From a virus: 64,000 nt of DNA. The stretch covers positions 103,364 to 167,363 of the IMG/VR virus record IMGVR_UViG_3300035670_000018. One strand, 5' to 3'. Below, in pieces: positions 11,381 to 20,066 of the stretch; position 1 is the first letter of the stretch; each line of letters begins with the position of its first letter. The notes under the pieces were generated by a model. That model did no database searches, had not been told where the DNA came from, and worked only from the letters and a program-made list of their open reading frames with translations. The position numbers and the translations under genes are program-made.

Positions 11381-11611
11381 ATGAGAAAGCAGAGTCTTTG
11401 GAATCGATTTCTTAACTGGTACAGTCCAGTTTGGGGTATGCTCGTTCCGCTTGTCATCGCAGTAGGCTTTCTTTTTGTTCTAGAATATAAAGCAGATGAA
11501 CAAAAGCTTGCATTTTCTAATGCCTGTGCTACAATGGGTGGTGTCGCATTGATTGGACGTAACGGAACAAAAGTTTGCTTCAAGCAGGATGTTGTCCTGT
11601 CTGTACACTAA
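11381..11611 (+). CDS. Small membrane protein
   Basis: One hydrophobic segment. Confidence 0.5.
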   Translation: MRKQSLWNRFLNWYSPVWGMLVPLVIAVGFLFVLEYKADEQKLAFSNACATMGGVALIGRNGTKVCFKQDVVLSVH

Positions 11612-11628
11612 ATAAAATACAGTTTAAT

Positions 11629-11711
11629 GGCCACGTAACCGATGGCGGCTTCTACCCGCTTAACCGTAACTGGAGTTGAAAATGGGAGTTCGAATCTCTC
11701 CGTGGTCGCCA
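11629..11711 (+). tRNA. Atypical tRNA-Arg(TCT), no D-arm, expanded variable region
   Basis: GGCCACG/CGTGGTC acceptor, GGCGG-CTTCTAC-CCGCT, canonical T-arm, CCA. Confidence 0.75.
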
Positions 11712-11733
11712 TTTCAAATTATGGAGAAAGTGA

Positions 11734-12000
11734 ATGTCTGCACCGAAGACCAAGACCAAGTACACTTCTAAGGGTGAGCGTGAAGCGAACCGTAGCTTGT
11801 CAAAGGCTATCAAGCGTGATCGCACAGTCATTGAGAAGTCTCAGATCAAGCAGAAGGCATGGTTGAAGGGACAGAACCCTTGGATCGTCGTGCCGAATGA
11901 GAATACAGCCGATACTAAGGCACGGTTTGTTCGCGTTCGTGCTGAGACTGAGTGGGGTGATCCGCGCAAGGGCTTCATGTTCGGCGCGATGAAGGACTAA
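11734..12000 (+). CDS. Basic hypothetical protein conserved in T4-like phages
   Basis: GGAG SD; YTSKGER...AWLKG.NP. Confidence 0.6.
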   Translation: MSAPKTKTKYTSKGEREANRSLSKAIKRDRTVIEKSQIKQKAWLKGQNPWIVVPNENTADTKARFVRVRAETEWGDPRKGFMFGAMKD

Positions 12001-12007
12001 GATTAAC

Positions 12008-12084
12008 GCCCCCTTAGCCCAGCGGTAGGAGGCACCGGACTTAAAATCCGTACAGGGACAGTTCGAATCTGTCAGGGGGTACCA
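12008..12084 (+). tRNA. tRNA-Leu(TAA), short variable loop
   Basis: Cloverleaf, CCA. Confidence 0.9.
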
Positions 12085-12089
12085 AATTT

Positions 12090-12165
12090 GCATCTGTAGC
12101 ACAGCGGTTAGTGCTATCGGCTCATAACCGATTGGTCCTTGGTTCGAATCCAAGCGGATGCACCA
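12090..12165 (+). tRNA. tRNA with CAT anticodon (Ile2 or Met)
   Basis: Cloverleaf, ATCGG-CTCATAA-CCGAT. Confidence 0.9.
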
Positions 12166-12170
12166 AATAA

Positions 12171-12260
12171 CGGAGTGAGACTAAGAGTCAGAGAGGACTT
12201 ATAAACCTTTTGCAGCCGATTACTGCCTTTGAGGTGGAGCGTTACCACCCACTCCGACCA
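12171..12260 (+). tRNA. Atypical tRNA-Ile(TAT)
   Basis: CGGAGTG/CACTCCG acceptor, CT-TAT-AA loop, long variable arm, T-loop AGCGTTA, CCA. Confidence 0.65.
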
Positions 12261-12265
12261 ATATT

Positions 12266-12342
12266 GCCCTCGTAGCCCAACTGGCAGAGGCAGCAGATTC
12301 AAATCCTGCTCAGTGTAAGTTCGACTCTTACCGAGGGCACCA
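12266..12342 (+). tRNA. tRNA-Leu(CAA), short variable loop
   Basis: Cloverleaf, CCA. Confidence 0.88.
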
Positions 12343-12351
12343 AAAAAAAAG

Positions 12352-12392
12352 TTGACAAAAACATAAAATCCAGCTAGGATGTTGTATAAATA
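12352..12392 (+). promoter_or_regulatory. Tandem sigma70 promoter and T4-type late promoter upstream of the leader ORF
   Basis: TTGACA-N17-TAGGAT (12352-12380); TATAAATA (12385-12392). Confidence 0.8.
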
Positions 12393-12416
12393 GAATACAG
12401 TTTAAGAAAGACGGAA

Positions 12417-12503
12417 ATGAAACCCATTCTACCTCCATTTACAATTAATCAAGAAACATGCCAGCCATCATGGGCAGGTGTGATGAGGGGTTCTATGTAT
12501 TAA
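12417..12503 (+). CDS. Putative attenuator leader peptide MKPILPPFTINQETCQPSWAGVMRGSMY
   Basis: 28-codon ORF between promoters and terminator; its 3' end carries the antiterminator strand. Confidence 0.7.
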   Translation: MKPILPPFTINQETCQPSWAGVMRGSMY

Positions 12504-12527
12504 GTCTTAGTACAGACTTAGTTTCTT

Positions 12528-12566
12528 AGAACCCCGAAGCCAAAAGTTTCGGGGTTCTTCGTTTTT
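12528..12566 (+). terminator. Intrinsic terminator of the attenuator
   Basis: AGAACCCCGAAGC-CAAAA-GTTTCGGGGTTCT followed by TCGTTTTT. Confidence 0.85.
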
Positions 12567-12570
12567 ATAG

Positions 12571-12645
12571 TTGCGTCCAGTGCATAGCAGATATGCGAAA
12601 AAAGAATAAGAAAAGACTTGAAATTGGCTGCGACAAGCACTATAT
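12571..12645 (+). promoter_or_regulatory. Repeated promoter copy 3, upstream of the main tRNA array
   Basis: TTGC-N7-GCAT-N7-ATGC-N20-CTTGAA-N15-CACTATAT. Confidence 0.75.
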
Positions 12646-12697
12646 TAGATATGTAAGAGAGAAAAGAGTTTCCCAGCCGCGCGGGACAAGATGCGGT

Positions 12698-12709
12698 CGC
12701 TGTTTAACA
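12698..12709 (+). promoter_or_regulatory. boxA-like antitermination element
   Basis: CGCTGTTTAACA versus rrn boxA TGCTCTTTAACA; in the leader of a stable-RNA operon. Confidence 0.55.
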
Positions 12710-12801
12710 TTGTTAAGTTCCTATGAGTTACCCTTGCTCACTCAAGGGCGCACTGAGTAGCGAAATATCCAGTGAGGGACTGTGACTCAGCACAGCCTCA
12801 C

Positions 12802-12926
12802 ATTCTATCTCTTCAGATATGCACCGGGCATTGTAGCTACTGCCTAGTGTGGCACAGTCGCGCTGCTTCGGTGGCGTTCAAGATGAACTGTTCGATTCAG
12901 TTGGTGCATATCTGAAGTGATAGAAT
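12802..12926 (+). ncRNA. tRNA-like RNA on a long closing helix
   Basis: 23-bp terminal helix; AACTG-TTCGATT-CAGTT T-arm; UUCG hairpin. Confidence 0.65.
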
Positions 12927-12930
12927 ACAT

Positions 12931-13007
12931 TCCTCTCAAGCCAACTAGGTGGAGGCAACTGACTGTTAATCAGTGTACGACAGGTTCGAATCCTGTGGGG
13001 GGAGCCA
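12931..13007 (+). tRNA. tRNA-Asn(GTT)
   Basis: Cloverleaf, CCA. Confidence 0.92.
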
Positions 13008-13013
13008 ATTCAT

Positions 13014-13100
13014 GGACCAGTCGCCTAGTGGCTATGGCAGCAGACTCTTAATCTGTCGTGAGAAATCACATCGTGGGTTCGAGTCCCACTTGGTCCTCCA
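13014..13100 (+). tRNA. tRNA-Lys(CTT) with long variable arm
   Basis: Cloverleaf, GTGA-GAAA-TCAC arm, CCA. Confidence 0.88.
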
Positions 13101-13105
13101 ATCAT

Positions 13106-13179
13106 GGCCTATTAGTGAATGGATATCACACCGCTCTGTCTAAGCGGAGAAGCGAGTTTGAGCCTCGCATAGGTCGCCA
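13106..13179 (+). tRNA. tRNA-Asp(GTC)
   Basis: Cloverleaf, CCA. Confidence 0.9.
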
Positions 13180-13250
13180 TTTAGTACGCCTGTCCCGCTT
13201 TGGGAAGTTGGGTAGGGTTGACGGCACCCTCGCAGTACGAAAGCCGTTAT

Positions 13251-13328
13251 CTGAGTGTACGAGAGTCTGGTTACATCCCATAGATTTGGAATCTATGAAC
13301 GCAGGTTCGAATCCTGCCACTCAGACCA
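13251..13328 (+). tRNA. tRNA-Pro(TGG)
   Basis: Cloverleaf with weak D-stem, CCA. Confidence 0.88.
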
Positions 13329-13333
13329 ATTAT

Positions 13334-13407
13334 ATCAGTGTAGTGTAACGGTAGCACGGCAGCCTCCAAAACTGCTTGTCAGGGTTCGAATCCTTGCACT
13401 GGTGCCA
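13334..13407 (+). tRNA. tRNA-Trp(CCA)
   Basis: Cloverleaf, CCA. Confidence 0.92.
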
Positions 13408-13576
13408 GTCAGAAAGAGCGGTAGTCGGAGTGCGAATCCGATGAGAACATGCCTGTGATCGCACACAGGCATTAAGTATCCTCACCATAGACTTCGGTCA
13501 ACATAGAGGAACGCTCTTTCTACTTGACTTTACGTGATGCCTCGTCTATAATAAGACAACAATCAACGAGGTAACT

Positions 13577-13792
13577 ATGGCAAAGATGACGATTAAGAAA
13601 GTGATGGAATTACAAGATCATTTCATCAAAGCTGGTATTATGAAAGACCCTAAGTCTTATACCGCAGATGAATTGAAGTATCTTAATCCTGCTATTCCAT
13701 CTGACTTCATTGATGATTATGTTGATGTTCGTGATGGTAAGAAGAAAGAAAGCGACTGGCAGCGTATTCCGCTGAAGATCGAAGATTTGTAA
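13577..13792 (+). CDS. Hypothetical protein within the tRNA array
   Basis: Own TTGACT/TATA promoter and GAGG SD. Confidence 0.6.
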   Translation: MAKMTIKKVMELQDHFIKAGIMKDPKSYTADELKYLNPAIPSDFIDDYVDVRDGKKKESDWQRIPLKIEDL

Positions 13793-13798
13793 TACAAT

Positions 13799-13873
13799 GG
13801 GCTTGTAGTATAATGGGTATTATCTCCCGCTTGCACCGGGAAGAACAGGGTTCGATTCCCTGCTTGTCCACCA
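13799..13873 (+). tRNA. tRNA-Ala(TGC)
   Basis: G3-U70 pair; two U-U mismatches in the acceptor; CCA. Confidence 0.85.
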
Positions 13874-13881
13874 AGTTTAAC

Positions 13882-13955
13882 GCCTCTATAGTTCAATGGC
13901 AGAACGCCTGTTTTGTAATCAGGATATCAGGGTTCGATTCCTTGTCGAGGCACCA
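13882..13955 (+). tRNA. tRNA-Thr(TGT)
   Basis: Cloverleaf, CCA. Confidence 0.92.
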
Positions 13956-13957
13956 GT

Positions 13958-14076
13958 TTAGCGTTGTAGGAGCAGAAGTGACCTTGTTGGGATGGTCTGC
14001 TGTATGCGGCTCACAGGCGAGTTGAGGGGTTTGATCACCCCAAGTCTGGCGAGGGTTCAATTCCCTCCAACGCTAA
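13958..14076 (+). ncRNA. tRNA-like RNA with 9-bp closing stem and T-arm, no anticodon arm or CCA
   Basis: TTAGCGTTG/CAACGCTAA; GAGGG-TTCAATT-CCCTC. Confidence 0.55.
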
Positions 14077-14084
14077 TCTAATTT

Positions 14085-14153
14085 GATCTGGCTACGTAGC
14101 AGCAATGTGCGTCATGAATGTCAGACAGTCAACCAAATAACTGTGCGGTTGAC
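14085..14153 (+). ncRNA. Two-hairpin structured RNA, copy 1
   Basis: Shares GCTAC, GTCAYGAATG and ACTGTGC with 14252-14335. Confidence 0.55.
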
Positions 14154-14161
14154 ACCAGTTT

Positions 14162-14247
14162 GGGTGAGCGGCAACGACGGTGAGTTGCGGCGGACTGTAA
14201 ATCCCCTGTCTATGACTTAGAAGGTTCGAATCCTTTCTCACCCACCA
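14162..14247 (+). tRNA. tRNA-Tyr(GTA)
   Basis: Cloverleaf, variable arm, CCA. Confidence 0.9.
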
Positions 14248-14251
14248 AATT

Positions 14252-14335
14252 GATTTAGCTACTCACACAGTATGGTTACGCCATATCTTAGAGTCACGAA
14301 TGCTAAACAACCAGACTTAATACTGTGCTGTCTGG
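14252..14335 (+). ncRNA. Two-hairpin structured RNA, copy 2
   Basis: Different stem sequences with pairing kept; loop-loop CACAGTA/TACTGTG. Confidence 0.6.
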
Positions 14336-14345
14336 ATTATTTTAT

Positions 14346-14431
14346 ACTACCTTATCCAAGTGGTTGAAGGAAGGCGGCCGATAACCGTCTGGCGAAAGCC
14401 CGCGTTTGTTCGAATCAAACAGGTAGTACCA
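14346..14431 (+). tRNA. tRNA-Ile(GAT) with long variable arm and C33
   Basis: Cloverleaf, GGC-GAAA-GCC arm, CCA. Confidence 0.85.
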
Positions 14432-14509
14432 TTTCCTGTGCTTGCAATCTCTCAGTTAAAAGCTGTTGCAAGATTAAGTGTTATGTCTAATATGACATAG
14501 ACACAGGAT

Positions 14510-14794
14510 CTATTCTCTTGAAGGATAAAGACCTTCAACCACCATATGTGGTACAAGTTCGTCATCATGCCATTCGCGTCTGACTTTCTTGCCATAGTCT
14601 GGTCCAGAATCAACGAATGGTCTTAAGTCTGGTAGTGCGAAAGTGTGAATACCATCGCCACCCCAACGGGTGCCCAGTAGAGAGAACAAAGGTTCATGAT
14701 GTTGAATTTCTAATATCTGCCCGCGACATACCACAGTGTCTCTTGTGTTCCAAGTAAAAGGCAGATAAACAACTTGACTAATATAAGCTTCCAT
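14510..14794 (-). CDS. Stand-alone phage tail collar domain protein
   Basis: CRGQIL...LFSLLGTRWGGDG..TFALPDLR; minus-strand ACTAAATA at 14824-14831. Confidence 0.85.
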   Translation of the reverse strand: MEAYISQVVYLPFTWNTRDTVVCRGQILEIQHHEPLFSLLGTRWGGDGIHTFALPDLRPFVDSGPDYGKKVRREWHDDELVPHMVVEGLYPSRE

Positions 14795-14834
14795 GGTATA
14801 CTCCATTATATGAGTTGACATGGTATTTAGTTAT

Positions 14835-14908
14835 TGGGAGATCATCTAAAGGTAGGATAGCGGTCTTTGAAACCGCCGATCTTGGTTCGATTCCAAGTCT
14901 CCCAGCCA
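14835..14908 (+). tRNA. tRNA-Gln(TTG)
   Basis: Cloverleaf, CCA. Confidence 0.92.
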
Positions 14909-14960
14909 ATTCGTGCTTGCATAGCATATAGTCAATAGATGTAGCCGCACTACAATAGAC

Positions 14961-15044
14961 GGACTGGTTACCGTAGTGGCGAACGGCGCTGACTTTTAAT
15001 CAGCTATGCAAACACCGTGGGTTCGAGTCCCACCCAGTCCTCCA
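14961..15044 (+). tRNA. tRNA-Lys(TTT) with long variable loop
   Basis: Cloverleaf, CCA. Confidence 0.88.
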
Positions 15045-15049
15045 ATTAT

Positions 15050-15124
15050 GGCGCATTAGTTTAGTGGTCAGAATACTGGGCTTTCAATCCGGGGAGAAGG
15101 GTTCAATTCCCTTATGCGCTGCCA
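15050..15124 (+). tRNA. tRNA-Glu(TTC)
   Basis: Cloverleaf, CCA. Confidence 0.92.
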
Positions 15125-15129
15125 AATAT

Positions 15130-15207
15130 TGCGGGATAGAGCAGTCAGGTCAGCTTGCTAGGTTCATATCCTAGAGGTCGCAGGTTCGAATCCTGCTCCC
15201 GCTTCCA
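15130..15207 (+). tRNA. Initiator-type tRNA-Met(CAT)
   Basis: 1:72 mismatch; GCGGG acceptor; fMet-like D-arm. Confidence 0.85.
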
Positions 15208-15208
15208 T

Positions 15209-15283
15209 GCTGCATTAGTCTAGTGGTTAAGACGCAGGTCTGTGAAACCTGTTACGGCGGTTCGATTCCTCCATGCAGTACCA
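15209..15283 (+). tRNA. tRNA-His(GTG), no encoded G-1, A73
   Basis: Cloverleaf preceded by T and ending ACCA. Confidence 0.9.
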
Positions 15284-15288
15284 TTTAT

Positions 15289-15362
15289 TGCCCGGTCGTC
15301 TAACGGTAGGACGCCAGATTCTGACTCTGGCTATCGTGGTTCGAATCCATGCTGGGCAGCCA
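15289..15362 (+). tRNA. tRNA-Gln(CTG)
   Basis: Cloverleaf, CCA. Confidence 0.92.
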
Positions 15363-15366
15363 ATAT

Positions 15367-15441
15367 GGGGTAATGGTGAAATGGGAACACCGTGGTCTGC
15401 AAAACCATTATGAGTAGGTTCGATTCCTACTTACCCCTCCA
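15367..15441 (+). tRNA. tRNA-Cys(GCA)
   Basis: Cloverleaf, U73, CCA. Confidence 0.92.
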
Positions 15442-15447
15442 AACTAT

Positions 15448-15541
15448 GCATCCGTATCCCCCTTGGCTACGAACCAAGAGTAAGGTAACTGGAGATGGTC
15501 AGAGATGACTAATGCAGGTTCGAATCCTGTCGGATGCTCCA
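15448..15541 (+). tRNA. Atypical tRNA-Arg(ACG), no D-arm, expanded variable region
   Basis: GCATCCG/CGGATGC acceptor, CTTGG-CTACGAA-CCAAG, canonical T-arm, CCA. Confidence 0.75.
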
Positions 15542-15557
15542 CTAAAGGAAAACAACA

Positions 15558-15920
15558 ATGAAACTATTAATAGCAGCCTTTGCTGCCCTATTTTTAATGA
15601 CAGCACCCAGTAATGCTACAACAATGGTAGCATCATGGTATGATTGTGTTAAGCCTGGTGAATGTAGTAAACATAAGATTACTGCAAGCGGGCAAAAATT
15701 CAATCCAAATGCTTTAACAGCAGCACACAAGACATTGCCTTTCGGCACAAGACTGAGAGTTACACACAAAGGAAGATCGGTAATAGTAGTAATTAATGAT
15801 AGGGGCCCGTTCATTAGAGGCAGACATTTAGACCTATCAAGAGCAGCAGCAAGAAAGATTGGCTGCGGTGGAGTTTGCACAGTCAAGGTTGAAATCTTAG
15901 GAAAGAAGAAGAAAAGATAG
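15558..15920 (+). CDS. RlpA-like (double-psi beta-barrel) lytic transglycosylase, secreted
   Basis: Signal peptide; ASWY...TASGQKF...TAAHKTLPFGT...INDRGPF...LDLS. Confidence 0.9.
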   Translation: MKLLIAAFAALFLMTAPSNATTMVASWYDCVKPGECSKHKITASGQKFNPNALTAAHKTLPFGTRLRVTHKGRSVIVVINDRGPFIRGRHLDLSRAAARKIGCGGVCTVKVEILGKKKKR

Positions 15921-16081
15921 ACTTGACAACATGTGGGATTTAGTCTAATATATACATCGTGGCGGTAAGTAATGCGTTCCGTCATCCCGCAGCTAGAGGT
16001 TTGTGAGTGGACTGTTGACTGGAAACTCTCATTAACACAATAGTGGAGGCCGTAACCACTTTAAGAAATCGGAGCGAAATT

Positions 16082-16169
16082 GGATAGGTGGCAGAGTGGT
16101 CTATCGCATCGGTCTTGAAAACCGAAGTACCTTCGGGTACCGTAGGTTCGAATCCTACCCTATCCGCCA
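16082..16169 (+). tRNA. tRNA-Ser(TGA)
   Basis: Type II cloverleaf, CCA. Confidence 0.95.
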
Positions 16170-16186
16170 AACAAGAGGAAGATACA

Positions 16187-16333
16187 ATGAGTAAAGATTG
16201 TGGTTGTGGAAGAAGTCCGACTGGTAAGTGTATCGGTTGGCATGGGTTGACAAATGAACAATACTCTGCTAAACTACAAGAATACGAAAAGAAGAACTTG
16301 ACGGAATCAGCTCCTCAGTTGCTTCGTGATTGA
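16187..16333 (+). CDS. Small CDGSH-like Fe-S/Zn-binding protein
   Basis: CGCGRSPTGKCIGWH; GAGG SD. Confidence 0.6.
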   Translation: MSKDCGCGRSPTGKCIGWHGLTNEQYSAKLQEYEKKNLTESAPQLLRD

Positions 16334-16339
16334 ATAAAC

Positions 16340-16415
16340 GCTGCCTTGGTATAGCTGGTGCGTACATGCGCCTGAAGAGCGTGGGGACTCTGTTCGATTC
16401 AGAGAGGCAGCACCA
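16340..16415 (+). tRNA. tRNA-Phe(GAA)
   Basis: Cloverleaf, CCA. Confidence 0.9.
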
Positions 16416-16586
16416 TTTAGAGAGTTAATATGAAACTTAAAACTTGGTGGAAACATGCTGTGTTCCATTATGACATTCTAAAGGTGGATGATACTTGTGT
16501 TGATTACCTTAAGATGGTAACATTCTGGCATCCCGAATACAAAGAGTATCAGACAACAGTAAGTCATGTTTCAAACATAGAATAAT

Positions 16587-16620
16587 GCGTCTTGGGAGGT
16601 GATGGTCACCTCACCGCTCT
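16587..16620 (+). pseudogene. 5' half of a tRNA gene cut off at the anticodon loop
   Basis: GCGTCTT-GG-GAGG-TGATGGTCA-CCTC-A-CCGCT-CT, then the endonuclease promoter; no 3' half found. Confidence 0.65.
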
Positions 16621-16640
16621 CTGAAATACTAAATAGTAGT

Positions 16641-17213
16641 ATGAGATACACCATTTACAAAACGACTAATACAGTCAACGGCAAATACTACATTGGTAAA
16701 CATCAAACCATTGATCCAATGGATAACTATCTGGGTTCAGGTAAGGCTATTGCTAATGCCATAAAACTACACGGTAAAGATTCTTTTGTGAAAGAAGTTC
16801 TGTTTGATTTTGATACAGAAGAGGAAATGAACAGTAAAGAGCGTGAACTTATTACTGAAGATATCGTAAACGATCCGATGTCTTACAATTTAGGTGTCGG
16901 TGGAGAAGGCGGTCCTCACTTCAGTGGAAGAAAACATACAGACGAAACGCGAAAAAAACAGAAAAACGCAAATACAGGTCGTGTCTATGATTACGATAAG
17001 TATAGCGAAGAAAGAAAAAAGACCTTCTTTACTGAAGGCAATGAATACTGGAAGAAAAGAAAAAAGAACTTTCATACGGAAGAGAGCAAACAAAAGATTC
17101 GAGAAAAAAGGTTATTACAACCAACACCGAATTTAGGGCGCAAAATGTCTGAGGAACAAAAAGAAAAGATTCGTCAGACGCTTCTAAAGCGAAACAAGAA
17201 TATGCCTGTGTAG
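16641..17213 (+). CDS. GIY-YIG homing endonuclease (SegB-like position in the tRNA array)
   Basis: TIYKTTN...YYIGKH...YLGSG; NUMOD3 repeats; TACTAAATA at 16627. Confidence 0.9.
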   Translation: MRYTIYKTTNTVNGKYYIGKHQTIDPMDNYLGSGKAIANAIKLHGKDSFVKEVLFDFDTEEEMNSKERELITEDIVNDPMSYNLGVGGEGGPHFSGRKHTDETRKKQKNANTGRVYDYDKYSEERKKTFFTEGNEYWKKRKKNFHTEESKQKIREKRLLQPTPNLGRKMSEEQKEKIRQTLLKRNKNMPV

Positions 17214-17278
17214 TTCATTGATAGAACATGCGTCTCATAAGCGCAATGTAGGTGGTTTGATTCCACCCACAGGCACCA
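17204..17278 (+). tRNA. tRNA-Met(CAT), overlapping the endonuclease stop codon
   Basis: Cloverleaf, CCA. Confidence 0.88.
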
Positions 17279-17289
17279 AATAAATAGAA

Positions 17290-17495
17290 TGCTAACTCCG
17301 ACGGGAGTTGGCCGAGTGCAAGGAAATGACTGCTCACCAGGAGCGGTTAACTTGGCTAGATGGTGTGGTGCCCGTGCGCGACTGACGAGAGTCAGAGGCG
17401 TATCGTCTCCGACCAAGAGAATCTAGGCTGACACGTGGCAGATACAAGGTATCTTGGTCGTGTCTTGTGGGTGTACCCCAGTCCCACCTCACCTT
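17290..17495 (+). ncRNA. About 200-nt structured RNA, manA-motif-like
   Basis: Several hairpins; CGACCAAGA/TCTTGGTCG; GTGGG/CCCAC end; GTGCAAGG and GGTGTGGTGCCCG resemble the manA RNA from memory; adjacent to tRNAs. Confidence 0.55.
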
Positions 17496-17502
17496 ATTAA
17501 AT

Positions 17503-17576
17503 GCGGGTTTGTTGTAGTGGTAGCGAACTACCTTGCCATGGTAGAAGCGCGGGTTCGATTCCCGCATCCCGCTCCA
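17503..17576 (+). tRNA. tRNA-Gly(GCC)
   Basis: Cloverleaf, U73, CCA. Confidence 0.9.
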
Positions 17577-17772
17577 ATCATAAATACCAATATGCTAACT
17601 ATTCTATTTGTATTTTTGTTGTTGGGAACAGAAGTTCTTGCTTTCCTTATCATGATAGTGGTGTTAACATATGAAAAGATGTTTCCTAAAGAAGAACAGA
17701 AAAACAATATATTCTATGATGATAAGATGATAAATATTGATGACCAATCAAGGTCAAACACGAGGTAAGAAT

Positions 17773-17946
17773 ATGTTGAACACAGTTGTTGTTTTGGTTC
17801 TTGTTGCTGTTGTACTATGGGTCGGTTGGACTCTTTGGCAGAACGGCTGGGATGTAAAGAAGGCAGGTGCTGCTCTTGTAGCTGCGGCCGCTGCTGCTTG
17901 GCTCTGGATATCAGATTCGATTACATCTCTAACCGCAGGCATGTAA
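17773..17946 (+). CDS. Small two-TM membrane protein
   Basis: GAGG SD; two hydrophobic segments. Confidence 0.6.
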   Translation: MLNTVVVLVLVAVVLWVGWTLWQNGWDVKKAGAALVAAAAAAWLWISDSITSLTAGM

Positions 17947-18057
17947 TCTAGAAACCGCTCTTGGCCCGTAGCGGTATAGAAGTCTTCTGGGTAAGTCGTG
18001 CAAATGCTAATTCCAAATTATCAGGTTGCAGGACAAGCTAACGGGCTTCCAATTCAA

Positions 18058-18132
18058 GCTTCTTTCGCCAAATGGGAAGGCATCGGTTTTACACACCGAC
18101 ATGACAAGGTTCGATTCCTTGAAGAAGCACCA
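18058..18132 (+). tRNA. tRNA-Val(TAC)
   Basis: Cloverleaf, CCA. Confidence 0.92.
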
Positions 18133-18137
18133 TTAAT

Positions 18138-18219
18138 GCGAGTATGGTGAAATGGCAGACACACTTGCCTTAGAAGCAAGCGCGAAAGCATGGGGGTTCA
18201 AGTCCCTCTACTCGCACCA
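18138..18219 (+). tRNA. tRNA-Leu(TAG)
   Basis: Type II cloverleaf, CCA. Confidence 0.93.
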
Positions 18220-18225
18220 ATCACT

Positions 18226-18299
18226 GCCTCTATAGTTCAAAGGCAGAACACGGCTTTGGTAAAGCCGAAACACAGGATCGTTACCTGTTAGAGGCACCA
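18226..18299 (+). tRNA. tRNA-Thr(GGT)
   Basis: Cloverleaf, T-loop ATCGTTA, CCA. Confidence 0.88.
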
Positions 18300-18314
18300 T
18301 TTAGGAACTTAACA

Positions 18315-18812
18315 ATGATCAGAAAGAATATGGATTTAGACGAAGTTCGTGCATTCATCCAAGCACAATCTCCCGAAACAAAGATTTATCTAGGTGGCGA
18401 CTCTGAACGCTTTCAGTTGAATGGTGTATGGATGGCTGACTACATCAACGTTGTCGTTGTTCATAAGAACGGCAAGAACGGTTGTCGTGTGTTCGGTTCT
18501 GTTGTGCGTGAGCGTGACTATGACCAGCAGAAGGACAAGCCACGTATGCGTCTCATGAATGAAGTAATGAAGACTGCACAGCTTTACCTTGATCTGGAAG
18601 AAGCTATCGGTGAACGTGACTTTGAAATTCATCTGGACATCAATCCTGACTTGAAACACGGCTCATCTTGTGTTATAAATGAAGCTGTTGGTTACATTCG
18701 TGGTATGTGTAATGTGGTACCGCTAGTGAAGCCAAATGCTTGGGCAGCATCTTACTGTGCTGACAGGTACAAGGACGCTATTCAACATATTCCACAAGTG
18801 AAGGTAGGATAA
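18315..18812 (+). CDS. RNase H-like YkuK (DUF458) family protein
   Basis: IYLGGDS...RLMNEV...EIHLDIN...KPNAWAASYCAD. Confidence 0.8.
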   Translation: MIRKNMDLDEVRAFIQAQSPETKIYLGGDSERFQLNGVWMADYINVVVVHKNGKNGCRVFGSVVRERDYDQQKDKPRMRLMNEVMKTAQLYLDLEEAIGERDFEIHLDINPDLKHGSSCVINEAVGYIRGMCNVVPLVKPNAWAASYCADRYKDAIQHIPQVKVG

Positions 18813-18816
18813 AATT

Positions 18817-19266
18817 ATGACTAAGTTTTTTGTTATGTTGGCAGTGATGGCTGCTGCAATCTTTATGCTTGCTACTGGCACTAGAGCAGGAGTTGAACCT
18901 CTTGGTGAGCATGAAGTGATTATTAGGATTGACAAGTCCGATCAGAAGATGTACGTAGAAACGCCTACTGATTATTTTGAGTGGGATGTTTCTACTGGTC
19001 GTAAGGGTTATCGTACTCCTGTTGGCGTGTTTCAGCCCTATCTTTTGAGACCGATGCATTACTCAAGCAAGTATAATAACGCGCCGATGCCTCATTCAAT
19101 TTTCTTTCATGGTGGTTATGCAATTCATGCGACAACAGAAGTAAAGAAGCTTGGTCAACCCGCATCACATGGATGTATTCGTCTTAGCCCTCAGAATGCT
19201 CGTTGGTTGTATCGCATCGTAAACGAGTACGGCAAGTATAATACATATATAGAGATTACAGAATAA
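18817..19266 (+). CDS. L,D-transpeptidase (YkuD family), secreted
   Basis: Signal peptide; VSTG..TP.G; GYAIH...ASHGCIRL. Confidence 0.92.
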   Translation: MTKFFVMLAVMAAAIFMLATGTRAGVEPLGEHEVIIRIDKSDQKMYVETPTDYFEWDVSTGRKGYRTPVGVFQPYLLRPMHYSSKYNNAPMPHSIFFHGGYAIHATTEVKKLGQPASHGCIRLSPQNARWLYRIVNEYGKYNTYIEITE

Positions 19267-19270
19267 TATA

Positions 19271-19361
19271 GGAAGGATGGCCGAGAGGCCGAAGGCACCT
19301 CACTGCTAACGAGGCGTACCCTAATCAGGTACCGTGGGTTCGAATCCCACTCCTTCCGCCA
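19271..19361 (+). tRNA. tRNA-Ser(GCT)
   Basis: Type II cloverleaf, CCA. Confidence 0.95.
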
Positions 19362-19376
19362 AATTATGGATTAGTT

Positions 19377-20066
19377 ATGGAATACGATGGCATTTTCTTT
19401 ATCAATCATGCGCTGAAGGTAAATCAACTATCAGTGTATTCAAATCAGGAGCGTTTCGAGCAAACACTTGAAACGCTCTCTTCTATTAACAAGTATTGTC
19501 CCAATAACAAAGTGTTCATCTTTGATTCGTCTCCTGAAAGACCTGATGTAGAATATTTTGAGGAACTTAGCAACAGAGGCTCAATCGTTTTCTACTCTGG
19601 TGAAGAACCGGATGTAAAACGATTTTCTCAACACGGACAACGAAGTATTGCCGAATGCATCTCATTCATATACTTTCTAAGCTGGTTTCAAAAACAAGAC
19701 TTTAAGGCCAAGCGCATCTATAAGCTGTCTGGTAGATACAGACTGAATGACAATTTCATTGTTGATGATGATCGGTATAAGGATGCATTTGTCTTTGCTA
19801 ATGCTCTAGACTCATGGATGCCAAAGCACATGCAAGAGAGTATTGGAATTGATAAACTATTCAGACTTAGACTCTGGCATATGGACTACAATCTGTTAGG
19901 ACTATTCTATATACAGCTTTCAAAAATCCTTCAAGACTGTGCCAAATATCACATAGATGTTGAGCATAGCTATTATAAAAACTTGCATACATATAAGACA
20001 ATTGAACTTGACAAAATTGGTGTATGTGGTAATATAGCACCAAGTGGAGAATATATTGATGAGTAA
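19377..20066 (+). CDS. Hypothetical protein of a sugar-modification cluster (glycosyltransferase-like)
   Basis: KLSGRY motif; gene context. Confidence 0.5.
   Translation: MEYDGIFFINHALKVNQLSVYSNQERFEQTLETLSSINKYCPNNKVFIFDSSPERPDVEYFEELSNRGSIVFYSGEEPDVKRFSQHGQRSIAECISFIYFLSWFQKQDFKAKRIYKLSGRYRLNDNFIVDDDRYKDAFVFANALDSWMPKHMQESIGIDKLFRLRLWHMDYNLLGLFYIQLSKILQDCAKYHIDVEHSYYKNLHTYKTIELDKIGVCGNIAPSGEYIDE

What the first reader, a model, noticed from the sequence alone, without database searches (positions are those of the whole stretch)
12352..12566. Leader-peptide attenuator upstream of a phage tRNA array: candidate sensor of general tRNA shortage
Seen: a sigma70 promoter (12352-12380) and a late promoter (TATAAATA, 12385) precede a 28-codon ORF (12417-12503, MKPILPPFTINQETCQPSWAGVMRGSMY) that is below the ORF-track cutoff. 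A strong intrinsic terminator follows (stem 12528-12558 plus T-tract). GGGGTTCTA at 12487-12495, in the last codons, is the exact complement of TAGAACCCC (12527-12535), the terminator's 5' arm. The TAAGTCT/AGACTTA hairpin (12501-12520) nests between them, so the two folds are mutually exclusive. Established: this is the layout of trp/his/leu-type attenuators, but those use runs of one amino acid. This leader has 18 of 20 amino acids (no Asp or His) and many A-ending codons (AAA, CTA, CCA, ACA, CAA, GAA, TCA, GCA) that match anticodons encoded downstream. Inference: a ribosome reaching the stop masks the antiterminator strand and transcription ends. Stalling at roughly codons 2-19, caused by scarce or cleaved host tRNA, allows read-through into the 25 downstream tRNA genes. 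That would be on-demand tRNA replenishment, possibly against anticodon-nuclease defences. Caveat: other promoters lie downstream (12571, about 13524, 14774, about 15923), so the attenuator controls only part of the array's output.
Basis: partly seen in the sequence, partly recalled or inferred. Interest (0 to 1): 0.95.

Follow-up and report, generated by a model that had tools for sequence, protein, structure and literature searches.

The report
Attenuator-like leader inside phage tRNA array
A T4-like phage carries, inside its cluster of tRNA genes, a conserved mini-gene whose RNA can fold either into a transcription stop signal or into a shape that blocks it. This is the layout of a bacterial attenuator, and it may let the phage tune tRNA production to how well ribosomes are translating.

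Summary
One correction: the element lies inside the tRNA array, not upstream of it. ARAGORN finds three tRNAs before it and 24 after.

I found homologues in four sequence clades of uncultured T4-like phage contigs. There is one copy per genome, always co-oriented within or at the head of a tRNA array.

What is conserved:
- **Structure:** four helices, supported by compensatory changes: 1:2, P2, P3 and the terminator.
- **Region 2:** it repeats the terminator's 3' arm in all four clades.
- **Reading frame:** a 25-28 codon frame always stops 6-7 nt after region 2. All indels are 3 nt long.
- **Peptide:** it is not conserved. One clade uses a different frame through region 2.

Together these fit a translated leader better than a micro-protein or a purely non-coding RNA.

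Evidence against:
- A strong promoter follows the terminator in the window's clade.
- The ribosome-binding site is weak.
- The terminator wins at equilibrium for almost every modelled ribosome position.
- There is no run of regulatory codons.
- Leader codons match phage anticodons no better than ordinary phage genes do.

The "general tRNA shortage" sensor idea has only suggestive support, from unusually high amino-acid diversity in three clades. My verdict is a probable ribosome-mediated attenuator (about 0.5). It would be a new variant of a known kind, and it is untested experimentally.

The parts
12352..12380 (+). sigma-70-type promoter, TTGACA-17-TAGGAT, directly after tRNA-Leu(caa)
   Evidence: scores it 10 of 12. 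The -35 TTGACA is conserved in clades A, B and C. In B, C and part of A the -10 is TATAAA.
12385..12392 (+). TATAAATA, a T4-type late-promoter-like box that overlaps the likely transcription start
   Evidence: It is present in the window, L002, L011, L017, L023 and L029, but reads TACTAAATA in L003, L005, L007, L021 and L022. It is therefore not universally kept.
12407..12416 (+). purine-rich tract with a weak Shine-Dalgarno-like GGA 2 nt before the ATG
   Evidence: One search compares it with the phage's own genes, which usually have GGAG or AGGA 5-8 nt upstream. Clades A, B and C keep a purine tract and clade D has none. The GGA is lost in L018 and L022.
12417..12503 (+). leader ORF of 28 codons plus a TAA stop
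   Evidence: A 25-28 codon ORF is present in all four clades, and its stop lies 6-7 nt after region 2.
12431..12438 (+). region 1 (anti-antiterminator strand), which pairs with 12483-12491
   Evidence: Minimum-energy folds. A C-rich region 1 opposite the GGGG of region 2 is seen in every clade, with a different sequence in each.
12457..12482 (+). P2 hairpin, nested inside the 1:2 pairing
   Evidence: Five of its 7 pairs show compensatory changes across clades.
12483..12495 (+). region 2. The core GGGGTTCTA (12487-12495) equals the terminator's 3' arm and is complementary to region 3.
   Evidence: It is invariant in clades A, B and D and 8 nt long in C. Clade C was found without requiring region 2 in the search pattern.
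12499..12522 (+). P3 hairpin, which holds the stop codon in its 5' arm and is nested inside the 2:3 pairing
   Evidence: -7.7 kcal/mol. Four of its 9 pairs show compensatory changes. Clade C has a different stem sequence at the same place.
12527..12535 (+). region 3, TAGAACCCC, shared by the antiterminator and the terminator
   Evidence: The 2:3 hairpin including P3 is -23.6 kcal/mol.
12528..12566 (+). intrinsic terminator: a 13-bp stem with a 5-nt loop, then a T-tract
   Evidence: and (-21.1 kcal/mol). In the + strand scan of 11500-20000 it is one of only two stems longer than 7 pairs; the other (19448-19479) is followed by a poor T-run.
12618..12646 (+). second promoter, TTGAAA-17-TATATT, downstream of the terminator. 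It is context rather than part of the switch.
   Evidence: It is conserved in clades A and B. Clades C and D have no counterpart.

Best explanation
This is a ribosome-mediated, trp-type transcription attenuator built into the tRNA array of a group of uncultured T4-like phages.

**Proposed mechanism:**
1. Transcription starts at the element's own promoter, or arrives from the five tRNA-type genes upstream, and enters a 25-28 codon leader.
2. Region 2 can pair with region 1 (the anti-antiterminator) or with region 3 (the antiterminator, pre-organised by the nested hairpin P3).
3. Region 3 otherwise pairs with region 4 to form the terminator.
4. A ribosome that reaches the stop codon sits on region 2, so transcription ends.
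5. With no ribosome, the 1:2 pairing gives region 2 a partner and the terminator again wins.
6. A ribosome held on or near region 1 (around codons 9-12, T-I-N-Q in the window) leaves region 2 free to trap region 3. RNA polymerase then reads on into the tRNA-mimic RNA and the main tRNA block.

**Shown:** the sequence features, their conservation, helix covariation and reading-frame retention.

**Inferred:** translation of the leader, the kinetic competition between folds, and read-through.

What slows the ribosome is unknown. Overall decoding capacity is one candidate.
For: 1. **Layout.** It is present at the stated coordinates.
2. **Distribution.** Homologues fall in four clades. There is one copy in each of the four records searched in full. 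Where flanking DNA is held it is co-oriented within or at the head of a tRNA array.
3. **Structure.** On the model-fitted alignment 97% of cells pair and 13 pairs carry compensatory changes. No shuffle out of 500 reaches this.
4. **Region 2.** It repeats region 4 in all clades. This includes clade C, which was retrieved by a terminator-only pattern. None of the unrelated terminators with the same arms has the repeat, and the background rate is 3 of 218.
5. **Energies.** The antiterminator hairpin is -23.6 kcal/mol and the terminator -21.1. Transcripts cut after region 3 fold into the 2:3 form in clades A, B and C.
6. **ORF retention.** An ORF of 25 or more codons ending within 12 nt after region 2 has shuffle probabilities of 0.14, 0.11, 0.09 and 0.05 per clade. 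The length differences are all multiples of 3.
7. **Peptide not conserved.** pN/pS is 0.5, and the variable columns per codon position are 10, 11 and 10. Clade C reads region 2 in another frame with another stop codon one base away.
8. **No promoter after the terminator in C and D.** No promoter-like site lies between the terminator and the next RNA genes, so those genes seem to need read-through.
Against: - In the window's clade and in clade B, a strong promoter lies 60-90 nt after the terminator, so the switch can add only part of the downstream output.
- The ribosome-binding site is weak (GGA 2 nt from the ATG) and absent in clade D.
- With ribosome footprints masked at equilibrium, terminator probability is at or above 0.79 for nearly every position. 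In clades B, C and D antiterminator probability stays at or below 0.07 at elongating positions (codon 2 onward); only the initiation position in B reaches 0.22. Any antitermination must therefore be kinetic.
- The inner 5 bp of the terminator are not covered by region 2, which gives region 4 a foothold.
- There is no run of one codon, and leader codons match phage anticodons only at the genome background rate.
- Regions 2, 3 and 4 do not vary, so the 2:3 pairing itself has no covariation support.
- No expression data could be obtained.
Confidence: 0.5

Rival explanations
1. It is a stand-alone small RNA gene. The promoter drives a structured RNA of about 170 nt (P1-P4) that ends at its own terminator and acts in trans, like the other structured RNAs in this array. 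The ORF would be incidental.
For: - It has its own promoter and terminator, and another promoter follows in clades A and B.
- The helices covary.
- Stretches predicted to be unpaired are invariant at the nucleotide level, for example ATTAATCAAG, with no synonymous change across QPSWAG.
- The ribosome-binding site is weak.
- There is no third-position bias.
- The same array holds a manA RNA and a tRNA-mimic RNA.
- From memory: the T4 tRNA cluster also encodes small stable RNAs.
Against: - The ORF is retained in four clades with 3-nt indels and a fixed stop position.
- This reading does not explain why region 2 copies the terminator's 3' arm.
- In clades C and D the downstream RNA genes have no detectable promoter of their own.
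- No Rfam family matches.
Confidence: 0.25
2. It is an ordinary micro-protein gene of 25-28 aa with a normal terminator. The peptide itself would be the functional product, for example a small modulator of host factors.
For: - The ORF and start codon are kept, and indels are in frame.
- Clades A and B share a recognisable peptide pattern.
- From memory: T4 encodes functional peptides of this size, such as the 26-aa Stp.
Against: - pN/pS is 0.5 and variation is equal at all three codon positions.
- The peptides of clades C and D are unrelated to those of A and B, and clade C uses another frame through the conserved RNA motif.
- There is no PHROG or Pfam match.
- The conservation tracks RNA helices, not residues.
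Confidence: 0.1
3. It is a factor-dependent switch. The same alternative folds are set by a phage or host protein, a small molecule or an RNA that binds the conserved single-stranded stretches. The ribosome would not be the sensor.
For: - Unpaired stretches are invariant, for example ATTAATCAAG and GTTTCTTAG.
- At equilibrium the terminator is favoured whatever the ribosome position.
- The ribosome-binding site is weak.
Against: - The ORF is retained, and its stop lies exactly where a terminating ribosome would cover region 2.
- No known riboswitch, T-box or leader family matches.
Confidence: 0.1

Closest known systems
Leader-peptide transcription attenuators of enterobacterial amino-acid operons (trp, his, leu, thr, pheA, ilv)
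   Same: A short ORF overlaps region 1 and ends near region 2. The pairings 1:2, 2:3 and 3:4 are mutually exclusive. An intrinsic terminator is present. The antiterminator forms first, and the terminator is at least as stable overall.
   Different: - There is no run of codons for one amino acid.
- The downstream genes are tRNAs and a tRNA-mimic RNA, not biosynthetic enzymes.
- It is phage-encoded.
- Extra conserved hairpins, P2 and P3, are nested inside 1:2 and 2:3.
- A second promoter follows in two clades.
- No Rfam leader family matches.
pheST (pheM) leader attenuator of E. coli
   Same: Leader-peptide attenuation controls a component of the translation apparatus, so output is tied to tRNA charging. 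This comparison is from memory.
   Different: pheM is rich in Phe codons and controls a tRNA synthetase. Here the leader is compositionally diverse and the controlled genes are tRNAs.
pyrBI and pyrE attenuators (transcription-translation coupling)
   Same: Regulation by how closely the ribosome follows the polymerase, rather than by a specific codon run. This would fit a sensor of general translation rate. This comparison is from memory.
   Different: In pyrBI the leader ORF runs through the terminator, so a close ribosome blocks the hairpin physically. Here the ORF stops 24 nt before the terminator, and a separate antiterminator exists.
T-box leaders
   Same: A cis-acting terminator/antiterminator switch that reports tRNA status.
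   Different: There is no T-box match in Rfam and no specifier or T-box bulge is evident. The element is half the size of a T-box and carries an ORF.
Small stable RNAs of phage tRNA clusters (T4 species 1 and 2 RNAs; manA RNA, RF01745)
   Same: Structured non-coding RNAs sit among phage tRNA genes. A manA RNA lies in this same array at 17294-17495.
   Different: Those RNAs have no conserved ORF and no terminator/antiterminator duplication. The T4 RNAs are cut from the tRNA precursor (from memory), whereas this element has its own promoter and terminator.

Membership tests
Leader-peptide (ribosome-mediated) transcription attenuator | Intrinsic terminator between the promoter and the regulated genes | tested here: met
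   A 13-bp stem plus T-tract lies at 12528-12566, at -21.1 kcal/mol. It is conserved in all clades.
Leader-peptide (ribosome-mediated) transcription attenuator | Antiterminator that is mutually exclusive with the terminator | tested here: met
   12487-12495 is the exact complement of 12527-12535. The 2:3 hairpin is -23.6 kcal/mol and is the minimum-energy fold of transcripts cut after region 3. It is present in four clades. It has no covariation, because the arms do not vary.
Leader-peptide (ribosome-mediated) transcription attenuator | Anti-antiterminator (region 1) that lies inside the leader ORF and pairs with region 2 | tested here: met
   The 1:2 pairing appears in the minimum-energy folds of all clades, with different region 1 sequences. 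Helix 2 is 92% paired, and one of its pairs shows a compensatory change.
Leader-peptide (ribosome-mediated) transcription attenuator | Short translated ORF whose stop places the ribosome on region 2 | tested here: inconclusive
   The ORF is kept in four clades with its stop 6-7 nt after region 2, and the indels are 3 nt long. However, the ribosome-binding site is weak or absent, and translation itself could not be tested.
Leader-peptide (ribosome-mediated) transcription attenuator | Regulatory codons: a run or enrichment of codons for the sensed amino acid in the region 1 zone | tested here: not met
   No amino acid is repeated in tandem in clade A. Clade B has AAT AAT. The leader is unusually diverse instead.
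Leader-peptide (ribosome-mediated) transcription attenuator | Regulated genes depend on read-through, with no promoter between the terminator and those genes | tested here: inconclusive
   Not met in the window or in clades A and B, where a promoter lies at 12618-12646. In clades C and D no promoter-like site was found. The scan covers only sigma-70-type promoters.
Leader-peptide (ribosome-mediated) transcription attenuator | Read-through changes when leader translation is slowed or abolished | not testable with these tools
This needs reporters, Term-seq or Ribo-seq.
Rfam leader, riboswitch and T-box families | Match to a curated covariance model | tested here: not met
   No family reaches even E = 0.1 on 12380-12935, and none reaches its gathering score on 11500-20000 apart from tRNA and manA.

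The most novel reading that the evidence does not exclude
The leader is a "pan-codon" sensor. It packs 18-19 of the 20 amino acids into 26-28 codons, so a shortage or cleavage of almost any tRNA slows the ribosome over region 1. That opens the terminator and lets polymerase into the phage's own set of 20 or more tRNA genes. The result would be a feedback loop matching phage tRNA supply to decoding capacity, possibly triggered by host anticodon nucleases.
Probability: 0.15. Interest if true: 0.9.

Novelty: new variant of a known kind. Interest (0 to 1): 0.62.

Why it matters
As far as I know, and as far as three full-text searches show, tRNA genes are not known to be controlled by leader-peptide attenuation, and no phage tRNA array has a described cis-regulator.

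If the element works as its layout suggests, it would couple phage tRNA production to the actual performance of ribosomes in the infected cell. That bears on two open questions: why large phages carry tRNA sets, and how they respond to codon mismatch, host shut-off or tRNA-cleaving defences.

It also gives a compact part of about 170 nt with clear, testable mutations. Even if it turns out to be a small RNA, it is a conserved, uncatalogued structured RNA specific to phage tRNA arrays.

Tried and rejected
- **Close relatives in the phage collection.** blastn of 12000-13000 against INPHARED matched only tRNA genes, with no homologue of the element.
- **Chance pattern hits.** L009, L010 and L012-L015 were unrelated coding DNA.
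- **Terminator-only pattern.** The scan returned mostly unrelated terminators (about 40 of 61 loci), which I used as controls.
- **Anchoring on the downstream tRNA-mimic RNA.** This found no new clade.
- **80 loci of helicase relatives.** Almost none has a tRNA array, and none has the element.
- **Isolate and MAG genomes.** The scan gave four chance hits and no clue to the host. L167 from the last viral scan was also a chance hit.
- **Weak covariance-model hits.** L039, L067 and L075 are terminators only. L039 has an unrelated 20-codon ORF.
It does not separate the hypotheses, because the terminator is favoured almost everywhere.
- **Codon-anticodon matching.** No enrichment.
- **A 5' A-rich to 3' U-tract helix in the minimum-energy fold.** It is not kept in relatives, so I ignored it.
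- **Peptide families.** None found.
- **Literature.** Three searches found no report of such an element.

Full report
**Where we are.** The window is the last 64 kb of a 167-kb viral metagenome record. Its DNA polymerase is about 50% identical to those of T4-like cyanomyophages, and it also carries a DnaB-type helicase and a ribonucleotide reductase. It is therefore a distant T4-like myovirus. ARAGORN finds 27 tRNA genes, all on the + strand, between 12008 and 19361.

**Observation.**
- promoter TTGACA-17-TAGGAT at 12352-12380
- TATAAATA at 12385-12392
- ATG ORF at 12417-12503
- GGGGTTCTA at 12487-12495, complementary to TAGAACCCC at 12527-12535
- nested hairpin at 12501-12520
- a 13-bp terminator with T-tract at 12528-12566

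The region 12400-12570 folds far better than shuffled sequence, with z = -5.4.

One correction matters. Three tRNA genes (12008-12342) lie upstream, so the element is inside the array. In relatives it always sits between tRNA-Leu(caa) and tRNA-Asn(gtt).

**Relatives.** Exact-word and gapped-pattern scans of viral and metagenome contigs found 15 distinct full-length versions of the element. They fall into four clades:
- A: the window, L002, L003, L005, L007, L011, L021, L022 and L023
- B: L017 and its near-identical copies
- C: L029 (identical to L064) and L066
- D: L026

Clade C was retrieved by a pattern that specified only the terminator, yet it carries region 2. None of the unrelated terminators with the same arm sequence does.

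A covariance model built from clades A and B recovers C (48 and 44 bits) and D (25 bits). It finds exactly one copy in each of the four phage records searched in full. In all clades the element is co-oriented with tRNA genes and lies within or at the head of a tRNA array.

Scans of isolate and MAG genomes gave only chance hits. Relatives chosen by helicase similarity mostly lack tRNA arrays and all lack the element.

**RNA structure.** Minimum-energy folds of every clade show the same plan:
- a C-rich region 1 paired to the GGGG of region 2
- a hairpin, P2, nested between them
- a hairpin, P3, that holds the stop codon
- the terminator

On the model-fitted alignment 97% of cells form pairs. 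Thirteen of 35 pairs show changes on both sides: 5 of 7 in P2, 4 of 9 in P3, 3 of 13 in the terminator and 1 of 4 in the 1:2 helix. No shuffle out of 500 reaches these values, and sliding the partners collapses pairing to 56% or less. That alignment leans towards the model. Within clades A and B alone there is too little variation to say much.

Regions 2, 3 and 4 are invariant. The 2:3 antiterminator is therefore supported by conserved complementarity and rarity, not by covariation. Among 218 other terminator-like hairpins in 1.57 Mb, only 3 have such an upstream complement.

**Energetics.** The 2:3 hairpin with P3 nested inside is -23.6 kcal/mol, and the terminator is -21.1. Transcripts cut after region 3 adopt the 2:3 fold in clades A, B and C. 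For L007, whose region 4 is weaker, the antiterminator is even the full-length minimum-energy fold.

Once region 4 exists, the terminator state is favoured by about 14 kcal/mol if region 1 is free to take region 2. It is favoured by only about 4-5 kcal/mol if region 1 is masked; that figure is my arithmetic on the values.

I also modelled 30-nt ribosome footprints at equilibrium. Terminator probability is 1.0 when the ribosome is at or near the stop codon. It stays at or above 0.79 almost everywhere else. Antiterminator probability reaches 0.76 and 0.52 only with the A site at codons 9-10 in the window, and never exceeds 0.07 at elongating positions in clades B, C and D; at the initiation codon in B it reaches 0.22. 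Any antitermination must therefore be kinetic, as in the classical attenuators. Because region 2 does not cover the inner 5 bp of the terminator, region 4 has a foothold.

**Is the ORF real?**
- All four clades have a 25-28 codon ORF, starting with ATG (GTG in clade C).
- The stop lies 6 or 7 nt after region 2. It is TAA in clades A and B, TGA in C and TAG in D.
- After dinucleotide shuffling of the upstream part, an ORF of 25 or more codons ending there arises with probability 0.14, 0.11, 0.09 and 0.05 in the four clade representatives. That is roughly 5e-4 for three independent lineages.
- The length differences are all multiples of three: three events within A and B, and a +3/-3 pair within C.
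- The peptide is poorly conserved. pN/pS is 0.5, and the variable columns are spread 10, 11 and 10 over the three codon positions.
- The clade D peptide shares only its last residues with those of A and B. Clade C reads the conserved region 2 in a different frame.
- No PHROG or Pfam family matches.

A retained frame, a fixed stop position and an unconstrained peptide are what a leader peptide predicts. They fit a micro-protein poorly, and a purely non-coding RNA only by luck.

Three cautions apply. The Shine-Dalgarno-like GGA lies only 2 nt from the ATG, is lost in two variants and is absent in clade D, whereas the phage's genes usually have GGAG or AGGA 5-8 nt upstream. Clade C also has a shorter ATG ORF in the A-type frame. 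Several stretches predicted to be unpaired are invariant at the nucleotide level, which could mean a binding site.

**What would be regulated?** In the window and in clades A and B, a strong promoter (TTGAAA or TTGACT-17-TATATT) lies 60-90 nt after the terminator. It precedes a conserved RNA of about 280 nt that ends in a tRNA-mimic domain, followed by tRNA-Asn and the rest of the array. Here the switch can add only to downstream output.

In clade C the terminator is followed directly by the same conserved RNA and then by tRNA genes. In clade D it is followed by tRNA-Ala 10 nt after the T-tract. In neither case is there a sigma-70-like site in between. Those genes seem to depend on read-through, which argues that the terminator is leaky or regulated.

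**The "general tRNA shortage" idea.** The leaders are compositionally diverse, with these counts of distinct amino acids:

| Leader | Distinct amino acids | Residues |
|---|---|---|
| window | 18 | 28 |
| L002 | 18 | 26 |
| clade B | 19 | 27 |
| L029 (clade C) | 19 | 27 |
| L066 (clade C) | 18 | 27 |
| clade D | 14 | 25 |

Windows of the phage's own proteins average 13.5-14. Against stop-free nucleotide shuffles (mean about 14.6), the probabilities are 0.03, 0.018, 0.003, 0.0013, 0.017 and 0.64, in the table's order. Other clade A members have only 15-17 distinct amino acids, with P between 0.1 and 0.5. This is suggestive, not compelling.

Leader codons match phage anticodons exactly in 15 of 27 cases, against 54% in phage genes, P = 0.50. 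No amino acid is repeated in a run. The position where a stalled ribosome best frees region 2 in the window coincides with the invariant ACA ATT AAT CAA stretch. Clade B has AAT AAT there, and tRNA-Asn is the first tRNA downstream. I record this as a lead only.

**Comparison with known systems.** The element works like a trp/his/leu-type attenuator in layout. It fails one defining feature, the regulatory codon run. Two others are unresolved: translation of the leader, and dependence of the downstream genes on read-through. It matches no Rfam leader, riboswitch or T-box family. Three full-text searches found no report of attenuation in a phage tRNA cluster.

**Verdict.** The attenuator reading is the best-supported explanation, at about 0.5. 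A stand-alone small RNA comes second at about 0.25, and a micro-protein gene or a factor-dependent switch are at about 0.1 each. The specific "senses all tRNAs / counter-defence" claim stays speculative, at about 0.15. I class the element as a new variant of a known kind, with conserved and testable anatomy but no expression data.

Noticed in passing
window 17294-17495 (+): A manA RNA (RF01745) scores 61.6 bits, above its gathering score of 55.2. It lies between tRNA-Met and tRNA-Gly inside the array.
   Followed up: no
window 12650-12930 (+); also L029, L064, L066 and L007: The second promoter drives a conserved structured RNA of about 280 nt. It ends in a tRNA-like domain whose acceptor-type stem is extended to about 22 bp (12802-12926), with a T-arm-like TTCGATTC. 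Its fold has z = -4.1 and it has no Rfam match. Clade C keeps it directly after the terminator. It has a Y-RNA-like or tRNA-mimic architecture.
   Followed up: partly
window 12700-12722 (+); L029 and L066 downstream of the terminator: The motif CTGTTT(A/G)ACATTGTTAAGTTCC is conserved between clades A and C. It contains the small inverted repeat TTAAC-ATT-GTTAA. Its function is unknown.
   Followed up: no
window 12582-12597 (+), just upstream of the second promoter: A conserved small hairpin (GCATA...TATGC) lies between the terminator and the -35 box of the next promoter. It is kept in clades A and B with changes in the loop. It could be an operator or a processing site.
   Followed up: no
L007 and L006, downstream of the element: In this clade A variant the usual post-terminator segment is replaced by a different promoter (TTGCAA-17-TATATT) and a protein-coding ORF, which comes before the tRNA-mimic RNA. 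Region 4 is also weakened to GGGGTTTTT, and the antiterminator becomes the minimum-energy fold.
   Followed up: partly
L002, L005, L011 and L023 (relatives), equivalent to window 12171-12260: ARAGORN calls a 92-nt tRNA-Ile with anticodon TAT between tRNA-Met and tRNA-Leu(caa) in relatives. It calls nothing at the equivalent place in the window.
   Followed up: no
L083 11689-13320: Among 37 helicase-related loci checked, this is the only one with a tRNA array. It has 6 tRNAs starting 300 nt after the helicase gene and has no copy of the element. tRNA arrays are therefore patchy in this phage group.
   Followed up: partly
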